A stretch of DNA of 64,000 nt from Eledone cirrhosa (Eukaryota), in contig OZ024757.1 of NCBI GenBank assembly GCA_964016885.1, forward strand, positions 43,152,001-43,216,000, in the 5' to 3' direction. The position numbers and the translations under genes were made by a program. This document shows, piece after piece, positions 1 through 64,000 of the stretch (within the stretch, counting starts at the first letter, position 1; the number at the start of each line of letters is the position of its first letter). The notes beneath the pieces were generated by a model. The model was given only the letters and a program-made list of their open reading frames with translations, did not search any database and was not told the DNA's origin.

Positions 1-11
1 CGGCGGCCTTG

Positions 12-22
12 GCGCATGCGCA
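12..22. promoter_or_regulatory. NRF1-type motif GCGCATGCGCA (first of up to ~2,000 copies, one per monomer)
   Basis: Matches 11 of 12 positions of the NRF1 consensus TGCGCATGCGCA; full 12/12 in TTTGCGCATGCGCA variants (e.g. 41-52). Motif match only, no binding evidence. Confidence 0.4.
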
Positions 23-1082
23 CTAAGGGCCATCGTTCTTTGCGCATGCGCACAACGGTCCGGCGGCCTTGGTGCATGCGCACTACGGTCCGGCAGCCTT
101 GGCGCATGCGCACTACGGTCCGGCGGCTTTCGTGCATGCGCACTACGGTCTAGCAGCATTGGGGCATGCGCACTACAGCCCGGCGGCCTTGGCGCATGCG
201 CAGTACGGCCCGGCGACCTTGGCGCATGCGCACTACGGTCTGGCGGCCTTGGCGCACGCGCACTACGGTCCGGCGGTCTTGGCGCATGCGCACTACGGTC
301 CGGCGACCTTGTCGCATGCGCACTACGTCCTGGTGGCCTTGGCGCATGCGCAGTACAGTCCAGTGGCCTTGGCGCCTGCGCAGTAAGATTCGGCGGCCAT
401 GGCGCATGCGCACTAAGGGCCAGCGGTCTTTGCGCATGCGCAAAATGGTCCGGCGGCCTTGCCGCATGCACACTACGGCCCGGCGGCCTTGGCGCCTGCG
501 CACTACGGTCCGGCGGCTTTGGTTCATGCGCACTACGGTCTGGCAGCATTGGCGCATGCGCACTACGGTCCGGCGGTCTTGGCGCATGCGCACTACGGTC
601 CGGCGACCTTGCCGCATGCGCACTACATTCCGGTGGCCTTGGCACATGCGCAGTACGGTCCGGTGGCTTTAGCGCATGCGCACTACGGTCTGGCAGACTT
701 GGCGCATGCGCACTACGGTCTGATGGCCTTGGCGCGTGCGCACTACGGTCCGATGGCCTTGGCGCGTGCGCACTACGGTCCAGTGGCCTTGGCGCATGCG
801 CACAACGGTCCGGTGGCCTTGGCGCATGCGCACTACGGTCCGGCAGCTTTGGTGCATGCGCACTACGGTCTGGCAACATTGGCGCATGCGCACTACGGTC
901 CGCGGCCTTGGCGCATGCGCAGTACGGCCCGGCGGCCTTGGCGCATGCGCACTACGGTCTGGCGGCCTTGGCGCATGCGCACTACGTTCCGGCGGCGTTG
1001 GCGCATGCGCACTACGGTTCGGAGGCCTTGGCGCATGCGCACTACGGTCCGACGTCCTTGACGCATGTGCAGTACGGTCCGG

Positions 1083-1348
1083 ATGAATTTTTAGCCATTT
1101 TAAGCCTTTATGTTGCCATATTTAGCCATTTTGAGTTATTTTAGTAATTTATGATGCAGTTTAACCATTTTAGAGCCATTTATAGTCATTTTAGACGTTT
1201 CAGTCGTGTTAGAGTCATTCTAGTCAATTATGATACGGTTTTAGCATTTTATTGTCACTTTAGTCATTTATTATGCCGTCTTAGCCATTTTGTTGTAATT
1301 TCAGACATACATGATGACATTTCGGCCATGTTAGTCCTTTTTGATGAA
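1083..1348 (+). repeat. AT-rich 266-bp spacer, copy 1, subtype A (GATGAA ends)
   Basis: ATGAATTTTTAGCCATTTT...CCTTTTTGATGAA between a forward and a reverse satellite arm. Confidence 0.97.
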
Positions 1349-4300
1349 GTGCCCATGCGCCAAGACCGCCAGACCGTACTGCGCATGCGCCAAGGGCGCC
1401 GGACCGTAGTGCGCATGCGCCAAGGCCGCCTGACTGTACTGCGCATGCGTCAAGGTCGCAGTACCGAACTGCGCATGCGCTAAGGCCGCCGAACCGCATT
1501 GCGCATGCGCCAAGGCCACCTGACTGTACTGCGCATGCGTCAAGGTCGCAGTACCGAACTGCGCATGCGCTAAGGCCGCCGGACCGTACTGCGCATGCGC
1601 CAAGGCCGCCGGACCGTAGTGCGCATGCGCCAAGGCCGCCTGACTGTACTGCGCATGCATCAAGGTCCCAGTACCGTACTGCGCATGCACCAAGGCCACC
1701 AGGACGTAGTGCGCATGCGCCAAGGCCATCGGACCGTAGTGCGCATGCGCCAAGTCTGCCAGACCGTAGTGCGCATGCGCCAAAGCCACCGGACCGTACT
1801 GCGCATGTGCCAAGGCCACCGGAACGTAGTGCGCATGCGGCAAGGTCGCTGGACCGTAGTGCGCATGCGCCAAGACCGACGGTCCGGTGGCTTTGGCGCA
1901 TGCGCACTACGGTCCGGCGTCCTTGGCGCATGTGCAGTACGGTCCGGTGACCTTGGCGCATGCGCACTACGGTCCAGCTGCTTTGGCGCATGCGCAGTAC
2001 GGTTCAGCGGCCTTAGCGCATGCGCACTACGGTCCGGCGGGCTTGGCGCATGTGCAGTATGGTCCGGCGACCTTGACGCATGCGCACTACGGTTCGGCGG
2101 CTCTGGCGCATGCGCACTGCGGTCAGCGGCCTTGGCGCATGCGCACTACGTTCCGGTGGCCTTGGCGCATGCGCAGTACGCTCCAGTGGCCTTGGCGCAT
2201 GCGCAGTAAGGTCCGGCGGCTTTGGCGCATGCGCACTATGGTCTGTCAGTCTTGGCGCATGCGCACTACGGTCCGGCTGCCTTCGTGGATGCGCACTACG
2301 TTCCGGCGGCCTTGCCGCATGCGCACTACGGTCCGGTGGCTTTGGCGCATGCGCACTACGGTCTGGCAGACTTGGCGCATGCGCACTACGGTCCGATGGC
2401 CTTGGCGCATGCGCACTACGGTCTGGCAGCATTGGCGCATGCGCACTACGGTCCGGCGGTCTTGGCGCATGCGCACTACGGTCCGGCGACCTTGCCGCAT
2501 GCGCACTACGTTCCGGTGGCCTTGGCACATGCGCAGTACGGTCCGGTGGCTTTAGCGCATGCGCACTACGGTCTGGCAGACTTGGCGCATGCGCACTACG
2601 GTCCGATGGCCTTGGCGCGTGCGCACTACGGTCCAGTGGCCTTGGCGCATGCGCACAACGGTCCGGCGGCCTTGGCGCATGCGCACTACGGTCCGGCAGC
2701 TTTGGTGCATGCGCACTACGGTCTGGCAGCATTGGCGCATGCGCACTACGGTCCGGCGGCCTTGGCGCATGCGCAGTAAGGTCCGGCGGCCATGGCGCAT
2801 GCGCACTAAGGGCCAGCGGTCTTTGCGCATGCGCACAATGGTACGGCGGCCTTGGCGCATGCGCACTACGTTCCGGTGGCCTTGACGCATGCGCAGTACT
2901 GTCCAGTGGCCTTGGCGCATGCGCAGTAAGGTCCGGCGGCCTTAGCGCATGCGCAGTACGTTCCGGCGGCCTTGGCGCATGCGCACTAAGGGCCATCGTT
3001 CTTTGCGCATGCGCACAACGGTCCGGCGACCTTGCCGCATGCGCACTACGTTCCGGTGGCCTTGGCACATGCGCAGTACGGTCCGGTGGCTTTGGCGCAT
3101 GCGCACTACGGTCTGGCAGACTTGGCGCATGCACACTACGGTCCGATGGCCTTGTCGCATGCGCACTACGTCCTGGTGGCCTTGGCGCATGCGCAGTACA
3201 GTCCAGTGGCCTTGGCGCATGCGCAGTGAGGTCCGGCGGCCTTAGCGCATGCGCAGTAAGGTCCGGCGGCCATGGCGCATGCGCACTAAGGGTCAGCGGT
3301 CTTTGCGCATGCGCACAACGGTCCGGCGGCCTTGGCGCATGCACACTACGGCCCGGCGGCCTTGGCGCCTGCGCACTACGGTCCGGCGGCTTTGGTGCAT
3401 GCGCACTACGGTGTGGCAGCATTGGCGCATGCGCACTACGGTCTGGCAGACTTGGCGCATGCGCACTACGGTCCGATGGCCTTGGCGCGTGCGCACTACG
3501 TTCTGGTGGCCTTGGCGCATGCGCACTACGTTCCGGTGGCCTTTGCGCATGCGCAGTACGGTCCAGCGGCCTTGGCGCATGCGCACAACGTTACGGTGGC
3601 CTTGGCGCATGCGCAGTACTGTCCAGTGGCCTTGGCGCATGCGCAGTAAGGTCCGGCGGCCTTAGCGCATGCGCAGTACGTTCCGGCGGCCTTGGCGCAT
3701 GCGCACTAAGGGCCATCGTTCTTTGCGCATGCGCACAACGGTCCGGCGGCCTTGGTGCATGCGCACTACGGTCCGGCGGCCTTGGCGCATGCGCACTACG
3801 GTCCGGCGGCTTTGGTGCATGCGCACTACGGTCTAGCAGCATTGGGACATGCGCACTACAGCCCGGCGGCCTTGGCGCATGCGCAGTACGGCCCGGCGAC
3901 CTTGGCGCATGCGCACTACGGTCTGGCGGCCTTGGCGCACGCGCACTACGGTCCGGCGGTCTTGGCGCATGCGCACTACGGTCCGGCGACCTTGCCGCAT
4001 GCGCACTACGTTCCGGTGGCCTTGGCACATGCGCAGTACGGTCCGGTGGCTTTGGCGCATGCGCACTACGGTCTGGCAGACTTGGCGCATGCGCACTACG
4101 GTCCGATGGCCTTGGCGCATGCGCACTACGTCCTAGTGGCCTTGGCGCATGCGCAGTACAGTCCACTGGCCTTGGCGCATGCGCACTATGGTCTGTCAGT
4201 CTTGGCGCATGCGCACTACGGTCCGGCTGCCTTCGTGGATGCGCACTACGTTCCGGCGGTCTTGCCGCATGCGCATTACGGTCCGGTGGCTTTGGCGCAT

Positions 4301-6056
4301 GCGCACTACGGTCTGGCAGACTTGGCGCATGCGCACTACGGTCCGATGGCCTTGGCGCATGCGCACTACGGTCTGGCAGCATTGGCGCATGCGCACTACG
4401 GTCCGGCGGTCTTGGCGCATGCGCACTACGGTCCGGCGACCTTGCCGCATGCGCACTACGTTCCGGTGGCCTTGGCACATGCGCAGTACGGTCCGGTGGC
4501 TTTAGCGCATGCGCACTACGGTCTGGCAGACTTGGCGCATGCGCACTACGGTCCGATGGCCTTGGCGCGTGCGCACTACGGTCCAGTGGCCTTGGCGCAT
4601 GCGCACAACGGTCCGGCGGCCTTGGCGCATGCGCACTACGGTCCGGCAGCTTTGGTGCATGCGCACTACGGTCTGGCAGCATTGGCGCATGCGCACTACG
4701 GTCCGGCGGCCTTGGCGCATGCGCAGTAAGGTCCGGCGGCCATGGCGCATGCGCACTAAGGGCCAGCGGTCTTTGCGCATGCGCACAATGGTACGGCGGC
4801 CTTGGCGCATGCGCACTACGTTCCGGTGGCCTTGACGCATGCGCAGTACTGTCCAGTGGCCTTGGCGCATGCGCAGTAAGGTCCGGCGGCCTTAGCGCAT
4901 GCGCAGTACGTTCCGGCGGCCTTGGCGCATGCGCACTAAGGGCCATCGTTCTTTGCGCATGCGCACAACGGTCCGGCGGCCTTGGTGCATGCGCACTACG
5001 GTCCGGCGGCCTTGGCGCATGCGCACTACGGTCCGGCGGCTTTGGTGCATGCGCACTACGGTCTAGCAGCATTGGAGCATGCGCACTACAGCCCGGCGGC
5101 CTTGGCGCATGCGCAGTACGGCCCGGCGACCTTGGCGCATGCGCACTACGGTCTGGCGGCCTTGGCGCACGCGCACTACGGTCCGGCGGTCTTGGCGCAT
5201 GCGCACTACGGTCCGGCGACCTTGCCGCATGCGCACTACGTTCCGGTGGCCTTGGCACATGCGCAGTACGGTCCGGTGGCTTTGGCGCATGCGCACTACG
5301 GTCTGGCAGACTTGGCGCATGCACACTACGGTCCGATGGCCTTGGCGCATGCGCACTACGTCCTGGTGGCCTTGGCGCATGCGCAGTACAGTCCAGTGGC
5401 CTTGGCGCATGCGCAGTGAGGTCCGGCGGCCTTAGCGCATGCGCAGTAAGGTCCGGCGGCCATGGCGCATGCGCACTAAGGGTCAGCGGTCTTTGCGCAT
5501 GCGCACAACGGTCCGGCGGCCTTGGCGCATGCACACTACGGCCCGGCGGCCTTGGCGCCTGCGCACTACGGTCCGGCGGCTTTGGTGCATGCGCACTACG
5601 GTGTGGCAGCATTGGCGCATGCGCACTACGGTCTGGCAGACTTGGCGCATGCGCACTACGGTCCGATGGCCTTGGCGCGTGCGCACTACGTTCTGGTGGC
5701 CTTGGCGCATGCACAGTACGGTCCAGTGGCCTTGGCGCATGCGCACAACGGTCCGGCGGCCTTGGCGCATGCGCACTACGGTCCGTCAGCTTTGGTGCAT
5801 GCGCACTACGGTCTGGCAGCATTGGCGCATGCGCACTACGGTCCGGCGGCCTTGGCGCATGCGCAGTACGGCCCGGTGGCCTTGGCGCATGCGCACTACG
5901 GTCTGGCGGCCTTGGCGCATGCGCACTACGGTCCGGCGGCCTTGGCGCATGCGCACTACGGTCCGGCGGCGTTGGCGCATGCGCACTACGGTTCGGAGGC
6001 CTTGGCGCATGCGCACTACGGTCCGACGTTCTTGACGCATGTGCAGTACGGTCCGG

Positions 6057-6322
6057 ATGACTTTTTAGCCATTTTAAGCCTTTGTGTTGCCATATTTAGC
6101 CATTTTGAGTTATTTTAGTAATTTATGATGCAGTTTAACCATTTTAGAGCCATTTATAGTCATTTTAGACGTTTCAGTCGTGTTAGAGTCATTCTAGTCA
6201 ATTATGATACGGTTTTAGCATTTTATTGTCACTTTAGTCATTTATTATGCCGTCTTAGCCACTTTGTTGTAATTTCAGACATACATGATGACATTTCGGC
6301 CATGTTAGTCCTTTTTGATGAC
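6057..6322 (+). repeat. AT-rich 266-bp spacer, copy 2, subtype C (GATGAC ends)
   Basis: Near-identical to copy 1; diagnostic GATGAC, CTTTGTGTT, GCCACTTTG, GATGACGTG. Confidence 0.97.
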
Positions 6323-8292
6323 GTGCCCATGCGCCAAGACCGCCAGACCGTACTGCGCACGCGTCGATACGGCCTGATCGTAGTGCGCATGCGCCAAAGC
6401 CGCCTAACCGTAGTGCGCATGCGCCAAGGCCGCCGATACATAGTGCACATGCGCCAAGGCCGTCGGACCATACTGCGCATGCGCCAAGGGCGCCGGACAG
6501 TTGTGCGCATGCACCAAGGCCGCCTGACTTACTGCGCATGCGTCAAGGTCGCAGTACCGAACTGCGCATGCGCTAAGGCCTCCGGACCGTACTGCGCATG
6601 CGCCAAGGCCACCTGACTGTACAGCGCATGCGTCAAGGTCGCAGTACCGAACTGCGTATGCGCTAAGGCCGCCGGACCGTACTGCGCATGCGCCAAGGCC
6701 GCCGGACCGTAGTGCGCATGCGCCAAGGCCGCCTGACTGTACTGCGCATGCATCAAAGTCCCAGTACCGTACTGCACATGCACCAAGACCGCCGGACCGT
6801 AGTGCGCATGCGCCAGAGCCGCCGAACCGTAGTGCGCATGCGCCAAGGCCGCCGGACCATACTGCGCATGCGCCAAGGCCGCCGGGCCGTAGTGCGCATG
6901 CGCCAAAGACGCGGGCCCGTAGTGCGCATGCGCCAAGGCCACCTGACTGTACTGCGCATGCGTCAAGGTCGCAGTACTGAACTGCGCATGCGCTAAGGCC
7001 GCCGGACCGTAATGTGCATGCGCCAAGGCCGCCTGACTGTACTGCGCATGCGTCAAGGTCGCAGTACCGAACTGCGCATGCGTTAAGGCCGGCGGCCTTG
7101 GCGCATGCGCACTACGTTCCGGTGGCCTTGACGCATGCGCAGTACTGTCCAGTGGCCTTGGCGCATGCGCAGTAAGGTCCGGCGGCCTTAGCGCATGCGC
7201 AGTACGTTCCGGCGGCCTTGGCGCATGCGCACTAAGGGCCATCGTTCTTTGCGCATGCGCACAACGGTCCGGCGGCCTTGGTGCATGCGCACTACGGTCC
7301 GGCAGCCTTGGCGCATGCGCACTACGGTCCGGCGGCTTTCGTGCATGCGCACTACGGTCTAGCAGCATTGGGGCATGCGCACTACAGCCCGGCGGCCTTG
7401 GCGCATGCGCAGTACGGCCCGGCGACCTTGGCGCATGCGCACTACGGTCTGGCGGCCTTGGCGCACGCGCACTACGGTCCGGCGGTCTTGGCGCATGCGC
7501 ACTACGGTCCGGCGACCTTGTCGCATGCGCACTACGTCCTGGTGGCCTTGGCGCATGCGCAGTACAGTCCAGTGGCCTTGGCGCCTGCGCAGTAAGATCC
7601 GGCGGCCATGGCGCATGCGCACTAAGGGCCAGCGGTCTTTGCGCATGCGCAAAATGGTCCGGCGGCCTTGCCGCATGCACACTACGGCCCGGCGGCTTTG
7701 GCGCCTGCGCACTACGGTCCGGCGGCTTTGGTGCATGCGCACTACGGTCTGGCAGCATTGGCGCATGCGCACTACGGTCCGGCGGTCTTGGCGCATGCGC
7801 ACTACGGTCCGGCGACCTTGCCGCATGCGCACTACATTCCGGTGGCCTTGGCACATGCGCAGTACGGTCCGGTGGCTTTAGCGCATGCGCACTACGGTCT
7901 GGCAGACTTGGCGCATGCGCACTACGGTCTGATGGCCTTGGCGCGTGCGCACTACGGTCCGATGGCCTTGGCGCGTGCGCACTACGGTCCAGTGGCCTTG
8001 GCGCATGCGCACAACGGTCCGGTGGCCTTGGCGCATGCGCACTACGGTCCGGCAGCTTTGGTGCATGCGCACTACGGTCTGGCAACATTGGCGCATGCGC
8101 ACTACGGTCCGGCGGCCTTGGCGCATGCGCAGTACGGCCCGGCGGCCTTGGCGCATGCGCACTACGGTCTGGCGGCCTTGGCGCATGCGCACTACGTTCC
8201 GGCGGCGTTGGCGCATGCGCACTACGGTTCGGAGGCCTTGGCGCATGCGCACTACGGTCCGACGTCCTTGACGCATGTGCAGTACGGTCCGG

Positions 8293-10675: not shown

Positions 10676-13600
10676 GTGCCCATGCGCCAAGACCGCCAGA
10701 CCGTACTGCGCATGCGCCAAGGGCGCCGGACCGTAGTGCGCATGCGCCAAGGCCGCCTGACTGTACTGCGCATGCGTCAAGGTCGCAGTACCGAACTGCG
10801 CATGCGCTAAGGCCGCCGAACCGCACTGCGCATGCGCCAAGGCAACCTGACTGTACTGCGCATGCGTCAAGGTCGCAGTACCGAACTGCGCATGCGCTAA
10901 GGCCGCCGGACCGTACTGCGCATGCGCCAAGGCCGCCGGACCGTAGTGCGCATGCGCCAAGGCCGCCTGACTGTACTGCGCATGCATCAAGGTCCCAGTA
11001 CCGTACTGCGCATGCACCAAGGCCACCAGGACGTAGTGCGCATGCGCCAAGGCCATCGGACCGTAGTGCGCATGCGCCAAGTCTGCCAGACCGTAGTGCG
11101 CATGCGCCAAAGCCACCGGACCGTACTGCGCATGTGCCAAGGCCACCGGAACGTAGTGCGCATGCGGCAAGGTCGCTGGACCGTAGTGCGCATGCGCCAA
11201 GACCGACGGTCCGGTGGCTTTGGCGCATGCGCACTACGGTCCGGCGTCCTTGGCGCATGTGCAGTACGGTCCGGTGACCTTGGCGCATGCGCACTACGGT
11301 CCAGCTGCTTTGGCGCATGCGCAGTACGGTTCAGCGGCCTTAGCGCATGCGCACTACGGTCCGGCGGGCTTGGCGCATGTGCAGTATGGTCCGGCGACCT
11401 TGACGCATGCGCACTACGGTTCGGCGGCTCTGGCGCATGCGCACTGCGGTCAGCGGCCTTGGCGCATGCGCACTACGTTCCGGTGGCCTTGGCGCATGCG
11501 CAGTACGCTCCAGTGGCCTTGGCGCATGCGCAGTAAGGTCCGGCGGCTTTGGCGCATGCGCACTATGGTCTGTCAGTCTTGGCGCATGCGCACTACGGTC
11601 CGGCTGCCTTCGTGGATGCGCACTACGTTCCGGCGGCCTTGCCGCATGCGCACTACGGTCCGGTGGCTTTGGCGCATGCGCACTACGGTCTGGCAGACTT
11701 GGCGCATGCGCACTACGGTCCGATGGCCTTGGCGCATGCGCACTACGGTCTGGCAGCATTGGCGCATGCGCACTACGGTCCGGCGGTCTTGGCGCATGCG
11801 CACTACGGTCCGGCGACCTTGCCGCATGCGCACTACGTTCCGGTGGCCTTGGCACATGCGCAGTACGGTCCGGTGGCTTTAGCGCATGCGCACTACGGTC
11901 TGGCAGACTTGGCGCATGCGCACTACGGTCCGATGGCCTTGGCGCGTGCGCACTACGGTCCAGTGGCCTTGGCGCATGCGCACAACGGTCCGGCGGCCTT
12001 GGCGCATGCGCACTACGGTCCGGCAGCTTTGGTGCATGCGCACTACGGTCTGGCAGCATTGGCGCATGCGCACTACGGTCCGGCGGCCTTGGCGCATGCG
12101 CAGTAAGGTCCGGCGGCCATGGCGCATGCGCACTAAGGGCCAGCGGTCTTTGCGCATGCGCACAATGGTACGGCGGCCTTGGCGCATGCGCACTACGTTC
12201 CGGTGGCCTTGACGCATGCGCAGTACTGTCCAGTGGCCTTGGCGCATGCGCAGTAAGGTCCGGCGGCCTTGGCGCATGCGCAGTACGTTCCGGCGGCCTT
12301 GGCGCATGCGCACTAAGGGCCATCGTTCTTTGAGCATGCGCACAACGGTCCGGCGACCTTGCCGCATGCGCACTACGTTCCGGTGGCCTTGGCACATGCG
12401 CAGTACGGTCCGGTGGCTTTGGCGCATGCGCACTACGGTCTGGCAGACTTGGCGCATGCACACTACGGTCCGATGGCCTTGGCGCATGCGCACTACGTCC
12501 TGGTGGCCTTGGCGCATGCGCAGTACAGTCCAGTGGCCTTGGCGCATGCGCAGTGAGGTCCGGCGGCCTTAGCGCATGCGCAGTAAGGTCCGGCGGCCAT
12601 GGCGCATGCGCACTAAGGGTCAGCGGTCTTTGCGCATGCGCACAACGGTCCGGCGGCCTTGGCGCATGCACACTACGGCCCGGCGGCCTTGGCGCCTGCG
12701 CACTACGGCCCGGCGGCTTTGGTGCATGCGCACTACGGTGTGGCAGCATTGGCGCATGCGCACTACGGTCTGGCAGACTTGGCGCATGCGCACTACGGTC
12801 CGATGGCCTTGGCGCGTGCGCACTACGTTCTGGTGGCCTTGGCGCATGCGCACTACGTTCCGGTGGCCTTTGCGCATGCGCAGTACGGTCCAGCGGCCTT
12901 GGCGCATGCGCACAACGTTACGGTGGCCTTGGCGCATGCGCAGTACTGTCCAGTGGCCTTGGCGCATGCGCAGTAAGGTCCGGCGGCCTTAGCGCATGCG
13001 CAGTACGTTCCGGCGGCCTTGGCGCATGCGCACTAAGGGCCATCGTTCTTTGCGCATGCGCACAACGGTCCGGCGGCCTTGGTGCATGCGCACTACGGTC
13101 CGGCGGCCTTGGCGCATGCGCACTACGGTCCGGCGGCTTTGGTGCATGCGCACTACGGTCTAGCAGCATTGGGACATGCGCACTACAGCCCGGCGGCCTT
13201 GGCGCATGCGCAGTACGGCCCGGCGACCTTGGCGCATGCGCACTACGGTCTGGCAGCCTTGGCGCACGCGCACTACGGTCCGGCGGTCTTGGCGCATGCG
13301 CACTACGGTCCGGCGACCTTGCCGCATGCGCACTACGTTCCGGTGGCCTTGGCACATGCGCATGCGCCAAGGCCGCCGGACCGTAGTGCGCATGCGCCAA
13401 GGCCGCCTGACTGTACTGCGCATGCATCAAGGTCCCAGTACCGTACTGCGCATGCACCAAGGCCACCAGGACGTAGTGCGCATGCGCCAAGGCCATCGGA
13501 CCGTAGTGCGCATGCGCCAAGTCTGCCAGACCGTAGTGCGCATGCGCCAAAGCCACCGGACCGTACTGCGCATGTGCCAAGGCCACCGGTGACCTTGGCG

Positions 13601-28953: not shown

Positions 28954-29219
28954 ATGAATTTTTAGCCATTTTAAGCCTTTATGTTGCCATATTTAGCCAT
29001 TTTGAGTTATTTTAGTAATTTATGATGCAGTTTAACCATTTTAGAGCCATTTATAGTCATTTTAGACGTTTCAGTCGTGTTAGAGTCATTCTAGTCAATT
29101 ATGATACGGTTTTAGCATTTTATTGTCACTTTAGTCATTTATTATGCCGTCTTAGTCATTTTGTTCTAATTTCAGACATACATGATGACATTTCGGCCAT
29201 GTTAGTCCTTTTTGATGAA
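28954..29219 (+). repeat. AT-rich spacer, copy 8, subtype A
   Basis: Matches copy 1 with variants CTTAGTCATT and TTGTTCTAAT. Confidence 0.97.
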
Positions 29220-31978: not shown

Positions 31979-32244
31979 ATGACTTTTTAGCCATTTTAAG
32001 CCTTTGTGTTGCCATATTTAGCCATTTTGAGTTATTTTAGTAATTTATGATGCAGTTTAACCATTTTAGAGCCATTTATAGTCATTTTAGACGTTTCAGT
32101 CGTGTTAGAGTCATTCTAGTCAATTATGATACGGTTTTAGCATTTTATTGTCACTTTAGTCATTTATTATGCCGTCTTAGCCACTTTGTTGTAATTTCAG
32201 ACATACATGATGACATTTCGGCCATGTTAGTCCTTTTTGATGAC
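31979..32244 (+). repeat. AT-rich spacer, copy 9, subtype C
   Basis: Matches copy 2. Confidence 0.97.
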
Positions 32245-41310: not shown

Positions 41311-44300
41311 GTGCCCATGCGCCAAGACCGCCAGACCGTACTGCGCACGCGTCGATACGGCCTGATCGTAGTGCGCATGCGCCAAAGCCGCCTAACCGTA
41401 GTGCGCATGCGCCAAGGCCGCCGATACATAGTGCACATGCGCCAAGGCCGTCGGACCATACTGCGCATGCGCCAAGGGCGCCGGACAGTTGTGCGCATGC
41501 ACCAAGGCCGCCTGACTTACTGCGCATGCGTCAAGGTCGCAGTACCGAACTGCGCATGCGCTAAGGCCTCCGGACCGTACTGCGCATACGCCAAGGCCAC
41601 CTGACTGTACTGCGCATGCGTCAAGGTCGCAGTACCGTACTGCGCATGCGCCAAGGCCGCCGGACCGTAGTGCGCATGCGCCAAGGCCACCTGACTGTAC
41701 TGCGCATGCATCAAAGTCCCAGTACCGTACTGCACATGCACCAAGACCGCCGGACCGTAGTGCGCATGCGCCAAGGCCGCCGGACCATACTGCGCATGCG
41801 CCAAGGCCACCTGACTGTACTGCGCATGCGTCAAGGTCGCAGTACTGAACTGCGCATGCGCTAAGGCCGCCGGACCGTAATGTGCATGCGCCAAGGCCGC
41901 CTGACTGTACTGCGCATGCGTCAAGGTCGCAGTACCGAACTGCGCATGCGTTAAGGCCGGCGGCCTTGGCGCATGCGCACTACGTTCCGGTGGCCTTGAC
42001 GCATGCGCAGTACTGTCCAGTGGCCTTGGCGCATGCGCAGTAAGGTCCGGCGGCCTTAGCGCATGCGCAGTACGTTCCGGCGGCCTTGGCGCATGCGCAC
42101 TAAGGGCCATCGTTCTTTGCGCATGCGCTCAACGGTCCGGCGGCCTTGGTGCATGCGCACTACGGTCCGGCAGCCTTGGCGCATGCGCACTACGGTCCGG
42201 CGGCTTTGGTGCATGCGCACTACGGTCTAGCAGCATTGGGGCATGCGCACTACAGCCCGGCGGCCTTGGCGCATGCGCAGTACGGCCCGGCGACCTTGGC
42301 GCATGCGCACTACGGTCTGGCGGCCTTGGCGCACGCGCACTACGGTCCGGCGGTCTTGGCGCATGCGCACTACGGTCCAGCGACCTTGCCGCATGCGCAC
42401 TACGTTCCGGTGGCCTTGGCACATGCGCAGTACGGTCCGGTGGCTTTGGCGCATGCGCACTACGGTCTGGCAGACTTGGCGCATGCGCACTACGGTCCGA
42501 TGGCCTTGGCGCATGCGCACTACGTCCTGGTGGCCTTGGTGCATGCGCAGTACGGTACTGGGACCTTGATGCATGCGCAGTACAGTCAGGCGGCCTTGGC
42601 GCATGCGCACTACGGTCCGGCGGCCTTGGCGCATGCGCAGTACGCCAAGGCCGCCGGGCTGTAGTGCGCATGCCCCAATGCTGCTAGACCGTAGTGCGCA
42701 TGCACCAAAGCCGCCGGACCGTAGTGCGCATGCGCCAAGGCCGCCGGACCGTAGTGCGCATGCACCAAGGCCGCCGGACCGTTGTGCGCATGCGCAAAGA
42801 ACGATGGCCCTTAGTGCACATGCGCCAAGGCCGCCGGAACGTACTGCGCATGCGCTAATGTCGCCGGACCTTACTGCGCATGCGCCAAGGCCACTGGACA
42901 GTACTGCGCATGCGTCAAGGCCACCGGTACGTAGTGCGCATGCGCCAAGGCCGCGGTACCGTTGTGCGCATTCGCAAAGACCGCTGGCCCTTAGTGCGCA
43001 TGCGCCATGGCCGTCGGACCTTACTGCGCATGCGCTAAGGCCGCCGGACCTTACTGCGCATGCGCCAAGGCCAGTGGACTGTACTGCGCATGCGCCAAGG
43101 CCACTAGGACGTAGTGCGCATGCGCCAAGGCCATCGGACCGTAGTGCGCATGCGCCAAGTCTGCCAGACCGTAGTGCGCATGCGCCAAAGCCACCGGACC
43201 GTACTGCGCATGTGCCAAGGCCACCGGAACGTAGTGAGCATGCGGCAAGGTCGCCGGACCGTAGTGCGCATGCGCCAAGACCGCCGGACCGTAGTGCGCG
43301 TGCGCCAAGGCCGCCAGACCGTAGTGCGCATGCGCCAAGGTCGCCGGGCCGTACTGCGCATGCGCCAAGGCCGCCGGGCTGTAGTGCGCATGCCCCAATG
43401 CTGCTAGACCGTAGTGCGCATGCACCAAAGCCGCCGGACCGTAGTGCGCATGCGCCAAGGCCGCCGGACCGTAGTGCGCATGCACCAAGGCCGCCGGACC
43501 GTTGTGCGCATGCGCAAAGAACGATGGCCCTTATTGCGCATGCGCCAAGGCCGCCGGAACGTACTGCGCATGCGCTAAGGCCGCCGGGCCTTACTGCGCA
43601 TGCGCCAAGGCCACTGGACAGTACTGCGCATGCGCCAAGGCCACCGTAACGTTGTGCGCATGCGCCAAGGCCGCTGGACCGTACTGCGCATGCGCAAAGG
43701 CCACCGGAACGTAGTGCGCATGCGCCAAGGCGGCCGGAACGTAGTGCGCATGTCGGCATGCGCACAACGGTACGGCGGCCTTGGCGCATGCGCACTACGT
43801 TCTGGTGGCCTTGACGCATGCGCAGTACTGTCCAGTGGCCTTGGCGCATGCGCAGTAAGGTCCGGCGGCCTTAGCGCATGCGCAGTACTTTCCGGCGGCC
43901 TTGGCGCATGCGCACTAAGGGCCATCGTTCTTTGCGCATGCGCACAACGGTCCGGCGGCCTTGGTGCATGCGCACTACGGTCCGGCAGCCTTGGCGCATG
44001 CGCACTACGGCCCGGTGGATTTGGTGCATGCGCACTACGGTCTAGCAGCATTGGGGCATGCGCACTACAGCCCAGCTGCCTTGGCGCATGCGCAGTACGG
44101 CCCGGCGACCTTGGCGCATGCGCACTACGGTCTGGCGGCCTTGGCGCACGCGCACTACGGTCCGGCGGTCTTGGCGCATGCGCACTACGGTCCGGCGACC
44201 TTGCCGCATGCGCACTACGTTCCGGTGGCCTTGGCACATGCGCAGTACGGTCCGGTGGCTTTGGCGCATGCGCACTACGGTCTGGCAGACTTGGCGCATG

Positions 44301-44371
44301 CGCACTACGGTCCGATGGCCTTGGCGCATGCGCACTACGTCCTGGTGGCCTTGGCGCATGCGCAGTACAGT

Positions 44372-44604
44372 CCATATTTAGCCATTTTGAGTTATTTTAG
44401 TAATTTATGATGCAGTTTAACCATTTTAGAGCCATTTATAGTCATTTTAGACGTTTCAGTCGTGTTAGAGTCATTCTAGTCAATTATGATACGGTTTTAG
44501 CATTTTATTGTCACTTTAGTCATTTATTATGCCGTCTTAGCCATTTTGTTGTAATTTCAGACATACATGATGACATTTCGGCCATGTTAGTCCTTTTTGA
44601 TGAC
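44372..44604 (+). repeat. AT-rich spacer, copy 13, left-truncated (~33 bp lost)
   Basis: Satellite CAGTACAGT-CCA joins directly to CCATATTTAGCC; right end GATGAC. Confidence 0.95.
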
Positions 44605-50172: not shown

Positions 50173-50428
50173 ATGACTTTTTAGCCATTTTAAGCCTTTG
50201 TGTTGCCATATTTAGCCATTTTAGTAATTTATGATGCAGTTTAACCATTTTAGAGCCATTTATAGTCATTTTAGACGTTTCAGTCGTGTTAGAGTCATTC
50301 TAGTCAATTATGATACGGTTTTAGCATTTTATTGTCACTTTAGTCATTTATTATGCCGTCTTAGCCATTTTGTTGTAATTTCAGACATACATGATGACAT
50401 TTCGGCCATGTTAGTCCTTTTTGATGAC
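50173..50428 (+). repeat. AT-rich spacer, copy 14, C-like with a 10-bp internal deletion
   Basis: TTTAGCCATTTTAGTAATTT lacks the TTGAGTTATT unit; GATGAC at both ends. Confidence 0.95.
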
Positions 50429-52485: not shown

Positions 52486-52751
52486 GTCATCAAAAAGGAC
52501 TAACATGGCCGAAATGTCATCATGTATGTCTGAAATTACAACAAAGTGGCTAAGACGGCATAATAAATGACTAAAGTGACAATAAAATGCTAAAACCGTA
52601 TCATAATTGACTAGAATGACTCTAACACGACTGAAACGTCTAAAATGACTATAAATGGCTCTAAAATGGTTAAACTGCATCATAAATTACTAAAATAACT
52701 CAAAATGGCTAAATATGGCAACACAAAGGCTTAAAATGGCTAAAAAGTCAT
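52486..52751 (-). repeat. AT-rich spacer, copy 15, subtype C, inverted
   Basis: Reverse complement of copy 2/9 (GTCATCAAAAAGG...TAAAAAGTCATC). Confidence 0.97.
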
Positions 52752-55510: not shown

Positions 55511-55776
55511 TTCATCAAAAAGGACTAACATGGCCGAAATGTCATCATGTATGTCTGAAATTACAACAAAATGACTAAGACGGCATAATAAATGACTAAA
55601 GTGACAATAAAATGCTAAAACCGTATCATAATTGACTAGAATGACTCTAACACGACTGAAACGTCTAAAATGACTATAAATGGCTCTAAAATGGTTAAAC
55701 TGCATCATAAATTACTAAAATAACTCAAAATGGCTAAATATGGCAACATAAAGGCTTAAAATGGCTAAAAATTCAT
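55511..55776 (-). repeat. AT-rich spacer, copy 16, subtype A, inverted
   Basis: Reverse complement of subtype A; shares CTTAGTCATT variant with copy 8. Confidence 0.97.
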
Positions 55777-58700
55777 CCGGACCGTACTGCACATGCGTCA
55801 AGGACGTCGGACCGTAGTGCGCATGCGCCAAGGCCTCCGAACCGTAGTGCGCATGCGCCAACGCCGCCGGAACGTAGTGCGCATGCGCCAAGGCCGCCAG
55901 ACCGTAGTGCGCATGCGCCAAGGCCGCCGGGCCGTACTGCGCATGCGCCAAGGCCGCCGGACCGTAGTGCGCATGCGCCAATGTTGCCAGACCGTAGTGC
56001 GCATGCACCAAAGCTGCCGGACCGTAGTGCGCATGCGCCAAGGCCACCGGACCGTTGTGCGCATGCGCCAAGGCCACTGGACCGTAGTGCGCACGCGCCA
56101 AGGCCATCGGACCGTAGTGCGCACGCGCCAAGGCCATCAGACCGTAGTGCGCATGCGCCAAGTCTGCCAGACCGTAGTGCGCATGCGCTAAAGCCACCGG
56201 ACCGTACTGCGCATGTGCCAAGGCCACCGGAATGTAGTGCGCATGCGGCAAGGTCGCCGGACCGTAGTGCGCATGCGCCAAGACCGCCGGACCGTAGTGC
56301 GCATGCGCCAATGCTGCCAGACCGTAGTGCGCATGCACCAAAGCCGCCGGACCGTAGTGCGCAGGCGCCAAGGCCGCCGGGCCGTAGTGTGCATGCGGCA
56401 AGGCCGCCGGACCATTTTGCGCATGCGCAAAGACCGCTGGCCCTTAGTGCGCATGCGCCATGGCCGCCGGATCTTACTGCGCAGGCGCCAAGGCCACTGG
56501 ACTGTACTGCGCATGCGCCAAGGCCACCAGGACGTAGTGCGCATGCGACAAGGTCGCCGGACCGTAGTGCGCATGCGCCAAGGTCGCCTGACTGTACTGC
56601 GCATGCATCAAAGTCCCAGTACCGTACTGCGCATGCACCAAGACCGCCGGACCGTAGTGCGCATGCGCCAGAGCCGCCGAACCGTAGTGCGCATGCGCCA
56701 AGGCCGCCGGACCATACTGCGCATGCGCCAAGGCCGCCGGGCCGTAGTGAGCATGCGCCAAAGACGCGGGCCCGTAGTGCGCATGCGCCAAGGCCACCTG
56801 ACTGTACTGCGCATGCGTCAAGGTCGCAGTACTGAACTGCGCATGCGCTAAGGCCGCCGGATCGTAGTGCGCATGTGCCAAGGCCGCCTGACTGTACTGC
56901 GCATGCGTCAAGGTCCCAGTACCGAACTGCGCATGCGCTAAGGCCGCCGGACCGTACTGCGCATGCGCCAAGGCCGCCGGACCGCAGTGCGCATGCGCCA
57001 GAGTCGCCGAACCGTAGTGCGCATGCGTCAAGGTCGCCGGACCATACTGCGCATGCGCCAAGCCCGCCGGACCGTAGTGCGCATGGGCCAAAGCCGCCTG
57101 ACCGTACTGCGCATGCGCCAAGTCCGCAGTACCGTACTGCGCATGCGACAAGGCCGCAGTACCGTAGTGCGCATGCGCCAAGGCCATATGACCGTAGTGC
57201 GCATGCGCCAAGGCCGCCGGACCGTAGTGCGCATGCGCCAAGGCCGCCGGATCGTAGTGCGCATGCGCCAAAGCCGCCGAACCGTAGTGCGCATGCGCCA
57301 AGGCCGCCGATACATAGTGCACATGCGCCAAGGCCGTCGGACCATACTGCGCATGCGCCAAGGCCGCCGGACCGTAGTGCGCATGTGCCAAGGCCGCCTG
57401 ACTGTACTGCGCATGCGTCAAGGTCGCAGTACCGAACTGCGCATGCGCTAAGGCCGCCGGACCGTACTGCGCATGCGCCAAGTCCGCCGGACCGTAGTGC
57501 GCATGCGCCAAGGCCGCCTGACTGTACTGCGCATGCATCAAGGTCCCAGTACCGTACTGCGCATGCACCAAGACCGCCGGACCGTAGTGCGCATGCGCCA
57601 GAGCCGCCGAACCGTAGTTCGCATGCGCCAAGGCCGTCGGAACGTACTGCGCATGCGCTAAGGCCGCCGGACCTTACTGCGCATGCGCCAAGGCCACTGG
57701 TCAGTACTGCGCATGCGTCAAGGCCACCAGAACGTAGTGCGCATGCGCCAAGGCCGCCGTACCGTTGTGCGCATGCGCAAAGACCGCTGGCCCTTAGTGC
57801 GCATGCGCCATGGCCGCCGGACCTTACTGCGCATGCGCCAAGGCCACTGGACTGTAGTGCGCATGCCCCAAGGCCACTGGACAGTACTGCGCATGCGTCA
57901 AGGCCACCGGAACGTAGTGCGCATGCGCCAAGGCCGCCGTACCGTTGTGCGCATGCGCCAAGGCCGCTGGACCGTACTGCGCATGCGCAAAGGCCACCGG
58001 AACGTAATGCGCATGCGCCAAGGCCGCCGGAACGTAGTGCGCATGCGCCAAGGCCGCCGGACCGTAGTGCGCATGCGCCAAGACTGACAGACCATAGTGC
58101 GCATGCGTCAAAGCCGCCGGACCTTACTGCGCATGCGCCAAGGCCACTGGAGCGTACTGCGCATGCGCCAAGGCCACCGGAACGTAGTGCGCATGCGCCA
58201 AGGCCGCCGGACCGTAGTGCGCATGCGCCAAGGCTGCCAGACCGTAGTGCGCATGCGCCAAAGCCGCCGGACCGTACTGCGCATGTGCCAAGGCCACCGG
58301 AACGTAGTGCGCATGCGGGAAGGTCGCCGGACCGTAGTGCGCATGCGCCAAGGCCGCCGAACCGCATGCGCACAAAGGTCCGGCGGCCTTGGCGCATGCG
58401 CAGTACGGTTCGGCGGCCTTGGCGCATGCGCACTACGGTCTGGCGGCCTTGGCACATGCGCACTACGGTCCGACGGCCTTGGGGCATGCGCAGTAAGATC
58501 CGGCGGTCTTGGAGCATGCGCACTACGGTCTGGCGGCCTTGGCGCATGCGCACTACGGTCTGGCAGCCTTGGCGCATGCGCACTACGGTCCGGCGGCCTT
58601 GGCGCATGCGCACTACTTTCCGGTGGCCTTGGCGCATGCGCAGTACGCTCCAGTGGCCTTGGCGCATGCGCAGTAAGGTCCGGCGGCTTTGGCGCATGCG

Positions 58701-59641: not shown

Positions 59642-59697
59642 CCATATTTAGCCATTTTGAGTTATTTTAGTAATTTATGATGCAGTTTAACCATTTT
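59642..59697 (+). repeat. AT-rich spacer remnant, copy 17 (56 bp, truncated both sides)
   Basis: CCATATTTAGCCATTTTGAGTTATTTTAGTAATTTATGATGCAGTTTAACCATTTT followed by CAAGGCC of the reverse arm. Confidence 0.95.
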
Positions 59698-59999: not shown

Positions 60000-60860
60000 G
60001 GGCCGCCGGACCTTACTGCGCATGCGCCAAGGCCACTGGACTGTAGTGCGCATGCCCCAAGGCCACTGGACAGTACTGCGCATGCGTCAAGGCCACCGGG
60101 CCGTAGTGCGCATGCGCCAAGGCCGCCGTACCGTTGTGCGCATGCGCCAAGGCCGCTGGACCGTACTGCGCATGCGCAAAGGCCACCGGAACGTAGTGCA
60201 CATGCGCCAAGGCCGCCGGAACGTAGTGCGCATGCGCCAAGGCCGCCGGACCGTAGTGCGCATGCGCCAAGACTGACAGACCATAGTGCGCATGCGCCAA
60301 AGCCGCCGGACCTTACTGCGCATGCGCCAAGGCCACTGGAGCGTACTGCGCATGCGCCAAGGCCACCGGAAAGTAGTGCGCATGCGCCAAGGCCGCCGGA
60401 CCGTAGTGCGCATGCGCCAAGGCTGCCAGACCGTAGTGCGCATGCGCCAAGGCCGCCAGACCGTAGTGCGCATGCTCCAAGACCGCCGGATCTTACTGCG
60501 CATGCCCCAAGGCCGTCGGACCGTAGTGCGCATGTGCCAAGGCCGCCAGACCGTAGTGCGCATGCGCCAAGACCGCCGAACCGTACTGCGCATGCGCCAA
60601 GGCCGCCGGACCTTTGTGCGCATGCGGTTCGGCGGCCTTGGCGCATGCGCACTACGGTCCGGCGACCTTCCCGCATGCGCACTACGTTCCGGTGGCCTTG
60701 GCACATGCGCAGTACGGTCCGGCGGCTTTGGCGCATGCGCACTACGGTCTGGCAGCCTTGGCGCATGCGCACTACGGTCCGGCGGCCTTGGCGCATGCGC
60801 ACTACGTTCCGGTGGCCTTGGCGCATGCGCAGTACGCTCCAGTGGCCTTGGCGCATGCGC
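60000..60860 (-). repeat. ~0.85-kb inverted duplication of ~58130-58990
   Basis: Same order of monomer variants reverse-complemented, including rare CACTACTTTCC/GGAAAGTAGTG and the mirrored junction at 58363/60624; boundaries approximate. Confidence 0.8.
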
Positions 60861-63563
60861 ACTATGGTCTGTCAGTCTTGGCGCATGCGCACTACGGTCC
60901 GGCGGCCTTGGCGCATGCGCACTACGTTCCGGCGGCCTTGGCGCATGCGCACTACGTTCCGGTGGCCTTTGCGCATGCGCAGTACGGTCCAGCGGCCTTG
61001 GCGCATGCGCACAACGGTACGGCGGCCTTGGCGCATGCGCACTACGTTCCGGTGGCCTTGACGCATGCGCAGTACTGTCCAGTGGCCTTGGGGCATGCGC
61101 ACTACAGTCCAGTGGCCTTGGCGCATGCGCAGTAAGGTCCGGCGGCCATGGCGCATGCGCACTAAGGGCCAGCGGTCTTTGCGCATGCGCACAACGGTAC
61201 GGCGGCCTTGGCGCATGCGCACTACGTTCTGGTGGCCTTGACGCATGCGCAGTACTGTCCAGTGGCCTTGGCGCATGCGCAGTAAGGTCCGGCGGCCTTA
61301 GCGCATGCGCAGTACGTTCCGGCGGCCTTGGCGCATGCTCACTAAGATGGCCATCGTTCTTTGCGCATGCGCCAAGGCCACGGGACGGTACTGCGCATGA
61401 TCCAAGACCGCCGGATCGTACTGCGCATGCCCCAAGGCCGTCGGACAGTAGTGCGCATGTGCCAAGGCCGCCAGACCGTAGGGCGCATGCTCCAAGACCG
61501 CCGGATCTTACTGCGCATGCGCCAAGGCCGCCGGACCGCAGTGCGCATGCGCCAGAGCCGCCGAACCGTAGTGCGCATGCGTCAAGGTCGCCGGACCATA
61601 CTGCGCATGCGCCAAGCCCGCCGGACCGTAGTGCGCATGGGCCAAAGCCGCCTGACCGTACTGCGCATGCGCCAAGTCCGCAGTACCGTACTGCGCATGC
61701 GACAAGGCCGCAGTACCGTAGTGCGCATGCGCCAAGGCCATATGACCGTAGTGCGCATGCGCCAAGTCCGCCGGACCGTAGTGCGCATGCGCCAAAGCCG
61801 CCGGATCGTAGTGCGCATGCGCCAAAGCCGCCGAACCGTAGTGCGCATGCGCCAAAGCCGCCGAACCGTAGTGCGCATGCGCCAAGGCCGCCGATACATA
61901 GTGCACATGCGCCAAGGCCGTCGGACCATACTGCGCATGCGCCAAGGCCGCCGGACCGTAGTGCGCATGTGCCAAGGCCGCCTGACTGTACTGCGCATGC
62001 GTCAAGGTCGCAGTACCGAACTGCGCATGCGCTAAGGCCGCCGGACCGTACTGCGCATGCGCCAAGGCCACCTGACTGTACTGCGCATGCGTCAAGGTCG
62101 CAGTACCGAACTGCGCATGCGCTAAGGCCGCCGGACCGTACTGCGCATGCGCCAAGGCCGCCGGACCGTAGTGCGCATGCGCCAAGGCCGCCTGACTGTA
62201 CTGCGCATGCATCAAGGTCCCAGTACCGTACTGCGCATGCACCAAGACCGCCGGACCGTAGTGCGCATGCGCCAGAGCCGCCGAACCGTAGTGCGCATGC
62301 GCCAAGGCCGCCGGACCATACTGCGCATGCGCCAGGGCCGCCGGACCGTAGTGCGCATGCGCCAAAGACGCCGGACCGTAGTGCGCATGCGCCAAGGCCA
62401 CCTGACTGTACTGCGCATGCGTCAAGGTCGCAGTACCGAACTGCGCATGCGCTAAGGCCGCCGGACCGTACTGCGCATGCGCCAAGGCCGCCTGACTGTA
62501 GTGCGCAGGCGCCAAGGCCGCCGGGCCGTAGTGTGCATGCGCAAAGACCGCTGGCCCTTAGTGCGCATGCGGTTCGGCGGCCTTGGCGCAGGCGCACTAC
62601 GGTCCGGCGACCTTCCCGCATGCGCACTACGTTCCGGTGGCCTTGGCACATGCGCAGTACGGTCCGGCGGCCTTGGCGCATGCGCACTACGTTCCGGCGG
62701 CCTTGGCGCATGCGCACTACGTTCCGGTGGCCTTTGCGCATGCGCAGTACGGTCCAGCGGCTTTGGCGCATGCGCACAACGGTACGGCGGCCTTGGCGCA
62801 TGCGCACTACGTTCCGGTGGCCTTGACGCATGCGCAGTACTGTCCAGTGGCCTTGGGGCATGCGCACTACAGTCCAGTGGCCTTGGCGCATGCGCAGTAA
62901 GGTCCGGAGGCCATGGCGCATGCGCACTAAGGGCCAGCGGTCTTTGCGCATGCGCACAACGGTACGGCGGCCTTGGCGCATGCGCACTACGTTCCGGTGG
63001 CCTTGACGCATGCGCAGTACTGTCCAGTGGCCTTGGCGCATGCGCAGTAAGGTCCGGCGGCCTTAGCGCATGCGCAGTACGTTCCGGCGGCCTTGGCGCA
63101 TGCGCACTAAGGGCCATCGTTCTTTGCGCATGCGCACAACGGTCCGGCGGCCTTGGTGCATGCGCACTACGGTCCGGCAGCCTTGGCGCATGCGCACTAC
63201 GGTCCGGCGGCTTTGGTGCATGCGCACTACGGTCTAGCAGCATTGGGGCATGCGCACTACAGCCCGGCGGCCTTGGCGCATGCGCAGTACGGCCCGGCGA
63301 CCTTGGCGCATGCGCACTACGGTCTGGCGGCCTTGGCGCACGCGCACTACGGTCCGGCGGTCTTGGCGCATGCGCACTACGGTCCGGCGACCTTGCCGCA
63401 TGCGCACTACGTTCCGGTGGCCTTGGCACATGCGCAGTACGGTGCGGTGGCTTTGGCGCATGCGCACTACGGTCTGGCAGACTTGGCGCATGCGCACTAC
63501 GGTCCGATGGCCTTGGCGCATGCGCAATACGTCCTGGTGGCCTTGGCGCATGCGCAGTACAGT

Positions 63564-63619
63564 CCATATTTAGCCATTTTGAGATATTTTAGTAATTTAT
63601 GATGCAGTTTAACCATTTT
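63564..63619 (+). repeat. AT-rich spacer remnant, copy 18 (56 bp)
   Basis: Same breakpoints as copy 17, one substitution (GAGATATT). Confidence 0.95.
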
Positions 63620-64000
63620 CAAGGCCGCCGGACCGTACTGCGCATGCGCCAAGGCCACCTGACTGTACTGCGCATGCGTCAAGGTCGCAGTACCGAACTG
63701 CGCATGCGCTAAGGCCGCCGGACCGTACTGCGCATGCGCCAAGGCCGCCTGACTGTACTGCGCATGCGTCAAGGTCGCAGTACCGAACTGCGCATGCGTT
63801 AAGGCCGCCGGACCGTACTGCGCATGTGCCAAGGCCGCCGGACCGTAGTGCGCATGCGCCAAAGCCGCCGAACCGTACTGCGCATGCGCCAAGGCCGCCG
63901 GACCGTACTGCGCATGCGCCAAGGCCGCCGGACCGCAGTGCGCATGCGCCAGAGCCGCCGAACCGTAGTGCGCCTGCGTCAAGGTCGCCGGACCATACTG

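What the first reader, a model, noticed from the sequence alone, without database searches (positions are those of the whole stretch)
1..64000. A satellite built of tandem foldbacks: every AT-rich spacer sits at a forward-to-reverse switch
Seen: 41 orientation switches in 64 kb. Of 21 forward-to-reverse switches, 18 carry the spacer or a remnant. None of the 20 reverse-to-forward switches does. The amplified unit is a 2-7 kb module of forward 30-mers, spacer and reverse 30-mers, which can fold into a stem of hundreds of bp with an AT loop. Established: most satellite arrays are head-to-tail over long distances. Drosophila FB and sea urchin TU foldback elements have inverted arms made of short tandem repeats around a loop. 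Inference: this is either a foldback-type element amplified into a macro-satellite, or a structural locus (centromere-, origin- or hairpin-RNA-like) with converging binding-site arrays around an easily melted core. Descent from a single founder unit could also give this pattern without selection.
Basis: partly seen in the sequence, partly recalled or inferred. Interest (0 to 1): 0.82.

Follow-up and report, generated by a model that had tools for sequence, protein, structure and literature searches.

The report
Flip-flop satellite from one founder junction
This stretch is a 30-base repeat that reverses direction 41 times, and all 18 AT-rich spacers sit at the same kind of turn, most likely because they are copies of one old junction rather than because that layout is needed.

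Summary
Raw reads of another sample span both spacer junctions, so those are not assembly errors.

The asymmetry is not 18 independent events. All spacers are copies of one junction. Collapsed to distinct junctions the count is 1 of 4 against 0 of 6 (p = 0.4). Neutral simulations from one founder put 91-93% of spacers at forward-to-reverse switches.

The arms are not mirror copies: they pair at 79-85%, like any two stretches of the array. Loopless switches fold at least as well.

Best reading: a higher-order satellite amplified in 2-7 kb units from one inversion junction that holds a piece of an AT-rich minisatellite. The palindromic monomer core likely seeds new switches. It resembles Tribolium macro-dyad satellites and Tetris foldback-derived satellite; no transposon ends are present.

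One lead remains: the monomer core matches the NRF1 consensus (1,259 perfect sites), is under-mutated, and CpG transitions are not elevated.

The parts
1..64000 (.). Higher-order satellite of a GC-rich 30-bp monomer (about 2,035 monomers, 272 distinct 30-mers among 1,852 full-length ones); 38.8 kb forward, 20.9 kb reverse, 4.3 kb spacer; runs off both ends of the window
5934..5963 (+). One exact copy of the consensus monomer; positions 12-21 are the perfect palindrome GCGCATGCGC, and positions 15-22 are the least variable
1083..1347 (+). Reference spacer, type 1 (also 8293, 10410, 19935, 24339, 28954, 34215, 38650): 265 bp, 31% GC, decayed 10/40-bp minisatellite with 20 T-tracts phased at 10.0 bp, all on one strand
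6057..6322 (+). Spacer type 2 (also 17699, 31979, 41045; 50173 is a related copy with a 10-bp deletion), three internal differences from type 1
52486..52751 (-). Inverted spacer inside a 4.8-kb inverted copy (52021-56821, 98.4% to 27910-32709); a second inverted spacer lies at 55512-55776; both still sit at F>R switches because inversion preserves that geometry
44374..44604 (+). Spacer lacking its first 35 bp, joined to a different forward monomer through a CCA microhomology
   Evidence: the same junction in raw reads
59644..59697 (+). 54-bp spacer remnant (second copy 63566-63619), trimmed on both sides
   Evidence: a matching joint in 248 raw reads
1348..1878 (-). Short reverse arm of type-1 units (531 bp); type-2 units have a 766-bp arm (6323-7088); a 3.3-kb reverse arm lies at 44605-47913. 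Reverse-arm monomer types are largely distinct from forward-arm types (4 shared among 100 F and 40 R types in 1-41956)
1870..1885 (.). R>F junction type A, 8 copies (1878, 11205, 20730, 25134, 29749, 35010, 39445, inverted 54980); centre is a 5-bp stem with a 1-nt loop
7080..7097 (.). R>F junction type B, 5 copies (7088, 9205, 18730, 33010, 41956); centre is a 7-bp stem with a 1-nt loop
47900..47925 (.). R>F junction type E, 4 copies (47913, 58362 inverted, 60624, 62569, the last a partial match)
13357..13589 (-). 233-bp exact copy of the upstream reverse arm (10917): a ~2.4-kb tandem duplication that made a new spacerless F>R switch at a TGCGCA microhomology, followed by a ~120-bp loss at the centre of junction A
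43075..44374 (.). The only near-perfect local palindrome: 619-bp arms at 96.9%, 63 bp apart, centred on the loopless R>F switch at 43755
61355..61375 (.). Spacerless F>R switch inside the 11-bp palindromic core; a third spacerless F>R switch lies at 42642

Best explanation
This is a higher-order satellite in which every spacer is a copy of one junction between a forward and a reverse array of 30-mers, and the one-sided placement most likely comes from inheritance of that junction, not from selection for a hairpin with an AT loop. Shown: one left and one right spacer junction recur in all full copies; the two arms carry different monomer sets; units of 2-7 kb are 95-99.8% identical; inverted copies keep the F>R geometry. 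Inferred steps: (1) long ago an inversion or template switch trapped 265 bp of an AT-rich minisatellite between two opposed 30-mer arrays; (2) the arms then diverged separately; (3) unequal exchange or replication slippage copied arm-spacer-arm blocks in tandem, and each tandem copy needs one R>F join, which has no spacer to inherit; (4) the self-complementary monomer core gives forward and reverse monomers 6-11 bp of homology and so seeds new spacerless switches; (5) a 265-bp loop and about 80% arm identity make cruciform extrusion in duplex DNA unlikely, so the layout is tolerated.
For: Spacers differ by 0-3 internal point changes and share both junctions. The 20 R>F switches collapse to 6 junction types and the 21 F>R switches to 1 founder plus 3 new ones; Fisher p = 0.4. 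In neutral simulations (6 settings, 970-976 of 1,000 runs kept per setting, those with at least 8 spacers), 91-93% of spacers lie at F>R, under 0.2% at R>F, and 35-52% of runs have all spacers at F>R. Arm complementarity is 79-85% against 84 +/- 2% for controls. Point differences per base among type-1 copies: spacer 3 in 8 x 265, left flank 4 in 7 x 600 (one copy misaligned by an indel left out), right arm 4 in 7 x 531. Microhomology of at least 6 bp at 2 of 9 spacerless junction types, both in the core, against 1.7% expected (p about 0.01; read by hand, null). In yeast, longer spacers and lower identity sharply reduce inverted-repeat instability in duplex DNA (PMC10164571, passages).
Against: The observed share of F>R switches with a spacer (86%) is above the simulated means (64-77%), and about half of the runs or more put some spacer between same-orientation arrays, which the window never shows; the simulation parameters are arbitrary. 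The monomer core is under-mutated (8 of 24 possible alleles among 114 established types against 54 of 66 elsewhere, p = 5e-5), which neutral copying alone does not explain. A contig of a run labelled as another organism (X4) holds the spacer-reverse-arm junction with 3 differences in 227 bp, so the junction may be old and kept. Only 64 kb were seen; no genome was held.
Confidence: 0.7

Rival explanations
1. The founder was the interior of a foldback or MITE-type DNA transposon: long inverted arms of 30-bp repeats (extra transposase sites) around an AT-rich middle domain. Adjacent copies lost their head-to-head termini by central deletion and the rest amplified. This differs from the best explanation only in step 1, so the two confidences overlap.
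For: The layout matches Tetris: long inverted repeats with internal tandem repeats around a non-coding middle (PMC4079207, sections read). A conserved palindromic core fits a protein site. A ~120-bp central deletion of an R>F junction is caught at 13584.
Against: No terminus, outer domain, target-site duplication or coding remnant in 64 kb. The arms are not mirror copies next to the spacer and end in different monomer phases. Related AT-rich repeats occur on other contigs of X1 and X4, 5-8 differences in about 50 bp, which suggests a separate repeat family as the spacer's source.
Confidence: 0.35
2. The array is a functional chromosomal structure, a macro-dyad (peri)centromeric satellite as proposed for Tribolium, in which an NRF1/EWG-type protein binds the monomer core and the phased T-tract spacer forms a bent or nucleosome-poor hinge.
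For: 1,259 perfect GCGCATGCGC sites, the preferred NRF1 site (PMC10810270, passages). The core is under-mutated in established and in rare types. CpG transitions are not elevated: ratio 0.98, 95% interval 0.51-1.86; CpG observed/expected 1.17. T-tract phasing at 10.0 bp, p = 0.0005. Conserved inversion sites in Tribolium are read as possibly functional (PMC13081366, PMC12581902).
Against: The spacer is no more conserved than its flanks and is trimmed or absent at 6 of 21 F>R switches. The established-versus-rare contrast for the core is not significant (p 0.23-0.28), so conversion or repair bias could explain it. The phasing follows from the spacer being a decayed 10-bp repeat. The Tribolium papers state that function is untested.
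Confidence: 0.13
3. The units are hairpin-RNA templates or replication origins with the spacer as the unwinding element.
For: Single strands are predicted to gain 138-143 kcal/mol by pairing across a spacer, against 3-11 for head-to-tail controls. The spacer is 31% GC in a 66% GC array.
Against: Loopless switches gain as much or more (123-208 kcal/mol over seven tested). Perfect runs across spacer switches are only 20-49 bp. The arms have diverged apart rather than together. No Rfam family reaches its threshold in 500-7500.
Confidence: 0.05
4. The switches are assembly or read-chimera artefacts.
For: R>F junctions and the three spacerless F>R junctions were not tested against reads. No long reads were listed.
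Against: In X8 (raw reads, another sample and study) about 800-900 reads cross the left spacer junction and about 1,360 the right; 192 show the deletion junction and 248 the remnant joint. Junction types A and B recur identically in 8 and 5 units that carry private mutations. Arms are not the mirror images that fold-back chimeras give.
Confidence: 0.02

Closest known systems
Tribolium macro-dyad satellites (T. madens TmSat1/TmSat2, PMC13081366; T. freemani TfSat01/TfSat03 cassettes, PMC12581902)
   Same: Satellite arrays that change orientation every few kb; a few inversion-site types repeated at 97-99% identity; a second repeat type inside the arrays; function untested.
   Different: Here the monomer is 30 bp and GC-rich with a palindromic core, and the commonest centre is an unrelated 265-bp AT-rich insert, not a degenerate monomer. 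Chromosomal position is unknown. PMC13081366 says such macro-dyads were documented only in Tribolium. The organism here is not known to me.
Tetris foldback transposon and its TIR-220 satellite (Drosophila virilis, PMC4079207); Rehavkus-linked satellites (passage in PMC12581902)
   Same: Inverted arms built of tandem repeats around a non-coding middle; arm repeats expand into satellite.
   Different: Tetris has outer flanking domains, an inner domain and 8-10 bp target-site duplications; none is seen here. In Tetris the repeats expand inside one arm; here the whole arm-spacer-arm block is the tandem unit.
Xstir repeats of Xenopus MITEs (seen only as a table line and a reference title in PMC6947457; the rest recalled)
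   Same: Short repeats in tandem and inverted arrangement derived from a small inverted-repeat element.
   Different: No sequence comparison was possible; no MITE termini are present here.

Membership tests
Foldback transposon (Tetris/FB type) | Long inverted arms containing tandem repeats around a non-coding middle domain | tested here: met
   definition from PMC4079207 section 10
Foldback transposon (Tetris/FB type) | Arms are inverted copies of each other | tested here: not met
   79-85% complementary, equal to controls; largely separate monomer sets
Foldback transposon (Tetris/FB type) | Outer non-repetitive terminal domain and target-site duplication | tested here: not met
   Only monomer and spacer DNA in 64 kb; R>F joins hold no extra domain. 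Ends could lie outside the window.
Foldback transposon (Tetris/FB type) | Dispersed copies at unrelated loci and a partner transposase | not testable with these tools
   No genome held; no homologue in three collections
Macro-dyad satellite (Tribolium type) | Multi-kb satellite subarrays in alternating orientation | tested here: met
   42 subarrays of 0.2-4.2 kb
Macro-dyad satellite (Tribolium type) | Few inversion-site types, nearly identical among copies | tested here: met
   Spacer junction x18, A x8, B x5, E x4
Macro-dyad satellite (Tribolium type) | Megabase (peri)centromeric domains on many chromosomes | not testable with these tools
   Only 64 kb; no genome, FISH or ChIP
Macro-dyad satellite (Tribolium type) | Organisation confirmed on raw long reads | tested here: inconclusive
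   Short reads confirm spacer junctions only; no long-read run listed
NRF1/EWG binding-site array | Perfect GCGCATGCGC consensus | tested here: met
   1,259 sites; consensus from PMC10810270
NRF1/EWG binding-site array | Occupancy by the protein in vivo | not testable with these tools
   Needs ChIP or footprinting
Hairpin-RNA locus | Transcription across both arms and small RNAs from the stem | not testable with these tools
   No RNA holder listed, which is no evidence either way

The most novel reading that the evidence does not exclude
A macro-dyad satellite outside Tribolium in which nearly every 30-bp monomer is a site for an NRF1/EWG-type factor that keeps a CpG-dense array free of methylation damage and acts like CENP-B, with phased T-tract spacers as hinges between opposed arrays.
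Probability: 0.12. Interest if true: 0.75.

Novelty: new variant of a known kind. Interest (0 to 1): 0.36.

Why it matters
As it most likely stands, it is a clean worked example of how a striking satellite architecture can arise from one junction, and a caution for reading conserved inversion sites as functional, as has been suggested for Tribolium. It also shows a palindromic monomer core creating new orientation switches (13356, 61361). If the novel case held, it would extend macro-dyad architecture to a short GC-rich monomer and tie a conserved transcription factor to satellite maintenance, which one ChIP and one methylation read-out could test.

Tried and rejected
Own genome: none held.

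Relatives in collections: a two-monomer pattern found 0 stretches in metagenome, viral and prokaryote collections. A looser three-core pattern gave 42, 1 and 8 loci; all 51 match only the core (22-35 of 60 positions) and none gave a BLAST hit to spacer or monomers.

Sequencing runs: 10 listed, no RNA holder listed; 4 of the 10 were laid, on 1040-1390 only. X5 holds monomers but no spacer in what was laid. Its 'opposite strands' joint is an ordinary head-to-tail pair mapped onto my inverted reference and was discarded. 107 loose-end rows and 140 contig rows were not shown, so other spacer flanks are not excluded. RAD reads start at restriction sites and give no copy numbers.

Coding repeat: rejected. 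There are 362-635 stops per frame, indel monomers, frequent strand switches, and low variation at would-be third positions in the core; long stop-free runs reflect a consensus with few stops.

Rfam: four sub-threshold mir-637 matches, 25.8 bits against a cut-off of 71, taken as chance.

Selection test on the core (established versus rare types): not significant.

Greater stability of spacer-bearing centres: not supported, since F>R and R>F centres each show 6 distinct junction types once trimmed spacers are counted.

Earlier findings of the scan: five look-ups, nothing relevant.

Literature: nine searches showed no paper describing this monomer; the library lacks most subscription papers. The centromere atlas 10.64898/2026.09.17.752431 gave three irrelevant passages. 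No supplements were read; those of the Tribolium papers may hold closer parallels.
Full report
OBSERVATION. The window is satellite from end to end: a 30-bp monomer at about 66% GC, broken by AT-rich dips. Direct repeats of 2-9 kb are 95-99.8% identical, so the amplification is recent.

REALITY CHECK. No genome is held. Ten runs were listed and four were laid on the spacer with 43 bp of flank. In X8, raw reads from another sample and study of the same organism label, about 800-900 reads cross the left junction and about 1,360 the right. 192 reads show the deletion junction seen at 44373, and 248 show the joint that matches the 54-bp remnant. X1 contigs span both junctions. A contig of X4, labelled as a different organism, spans the right junction with 3 differences in 227 bp at low depth; mislabelling or carry-over cannot be excluded.

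INDEPENDENCE. The full spacers differ by 0-3 internal point changes and share both junctions; the trimmed ones are deletions of the same sequence. The two inverted spacers still sit F>R, because inverting forward-spacer-reverse gives forward-spacer-reverse. The 20 R>F switches are six junction types (A x8, B x5, E x4, and 13584, 43755, 52020). The F>R switches are one founder and three new joins. The raw p of 7.5e-9 becomes 0.4. A neutral model starting from one founder, with random duplication, deletion and inversion, puts 91-93% of spacers at F>R and under 0.2% at R>F; 35-52% of runs have every spacer at F>R (six settings, 970-976 of 1,000 runs kept). Against my reading, the observed 86% of F>R switches with a spacer exceeds the simulated 64-77%, though the parameters are arbitrary.

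ARE THESE FOLDBACKS? Only loosely. Arms across spacer switches pair at 79-85%, and random neighbouring same-strand stretches match at 84 +/- 2%. In 1-41956, only 4 monomer types are shared between 100 forward and 40 reverse types, so the arms diverged apart. Predicted single-strand folding gains 138-143 kcal/mol across three full spacers, 152-208 across five loopless R>F switches, 123-134 across two spacerless F>R switches, and 3-11 in eight head-to-tail controls. The loop is therefore not what makes the stem. In yeast duplex DNA, a 12-to-100-bp spacer increase lowers inverted-repeat recombination 300-fold and instability is lost at 75% identity, while long single-stranded regions lift these limits (PMC10164571, passages). 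The only near-perfect local palindrome is 43075-44374, around a loopless switch.

THE SPACER. It is a decayed 10/40-bp minisatellite, 31% GC, with 20 T-tracts and no A-tracts on one strand, phased at 10.0 bp. Related AT-rich repeats lie on other contigs of X1 and X4, so it likely came from a second repeat family. Among type-1 copies it gathers point changes at 0.14% per base against 0.10-0.11% in the flanks (few events).

HOW NEW SWITCHES FORM. Monomer positions 12-21 are a perfect palindrome, so forward and reverse monomers share 10 bp in register. At 13356 a ~2.4-kb tandem duplication joined a forward monomer to the upstream reverse arm through TGCGCA, and about 120 bp were lost from the centre of junction A through CCGG. 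At 61361 the join lies in the 11-bp core, although its right parent is matched over only 38 bp. Two of nine spacerless junction types have at least 6 bp of microhomology against 1.7% for random joins (p about 0.01; counts read by hand). Junctions A and B are centred on 5- and 7-bp mini-hairpins.

THE CORE. Positions 15-22 carry 14 of 156 changes on a spanning tree of 99 established types where 27% is expected (p = 5e-8), and 8 of 24 possible alleles against 54 of 66 elsewhere. Rare types are also depleted (13 observed, 25 expected among 97 of 158 rare types with a one-difference parent, p = 0.004), and the established-versus-rare contrast is not significant. Selection cannot be told from conversion or repair bias. 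[quoted passage not shown] CpG transitions are not elevated (15 in 762 against 24 in 1,191 site-opportunities; ratio 0.98), so either the organism methylates little or the array escapes it. This is the open lead.

COMPARISON. Orientation-switching satellites with a few highly conserved inversion sites are described in Tribolium, and one paper calls them exclusive to that genus (PMC13081366, abstract and passages; PMC12581902, passages and section 6). Foldback arms that feed satellites are described for Tetris (PMC4079207, abstract, sections 3 and 10 and the first part of section 16). This array works like a macro-dyad satellite. It fails two tested features of a foldback transposon (mirror arms; termini with target-site duplication), so I do not file it as one, although a transposon founder remains possible (about 0.35). 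No homologue was found in the collections and no paper on this monomer in nine searches.

VERDICT. It is a new variant of a known kind, interest 0.36. The most novel surviving reading, an NRF1-site macro-dyad satellite with a structural role, has probability about 0.12.

Noticed in passing
window 1-64000, monomer positions 12-22: 1,259 perfect GCGCATGCGC sites, the NRF1 consensus; the right half (positions 15-22) is far less variable than the left half, so the conservation is asymmetric across the palindrome.
   Followed up: partly
window 1-64000: CpG observed/expected is 1.17 and CpG transitions are no commoner than other C/G transitions (ratio 0.98), unlike a heavily methylated satellite.
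   Followed up: partly
window 1082-1087 and 1343-1348; 6056-6061 and 6317-6322: The spacer starts and ends with the same 6-mer, GATGAA at both ends in type 1 and GATGAC at both ends in type 2: a paired change at two sites 260 bp apart. The C form dominates in X8 reads (777 of 822 and 1,229 of 1,364), whereas 9 of 15 near-full window spacers are type 1, so unit types probably vary between individuals.
   Followed up: no
window 52021-56821: 4.8-kb inverted copy of 27910-32709 at 98.4%, 19 kb away; its start also pairs with 50205-50893 at 95.9%, 1.1 kb away.
   Followed up: partly
window 41957-64000: The right third is more rearranged, with more private monomer types and longer reverse arms, than the regular left two-thirds; it may be the older edge of the array.
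   Followed up: no
run X4, contig matching window 1116-1201: The match stops at the same spacer position as the 44373 deletion junction and 119 further letters were not shown; if it is the same junction, that derived variant is shared between two organism labels.
   Followed up: no
L001, L006, L007, L012, L029, L039 (metagenome contigs): An unrelated 30-bp tandem repeat with the same GCATGCGCA core, 5-6 copies, recurs in several related metagenomes; other loci hold 15- or 30-bp repeats with this core.
   Followed up: no
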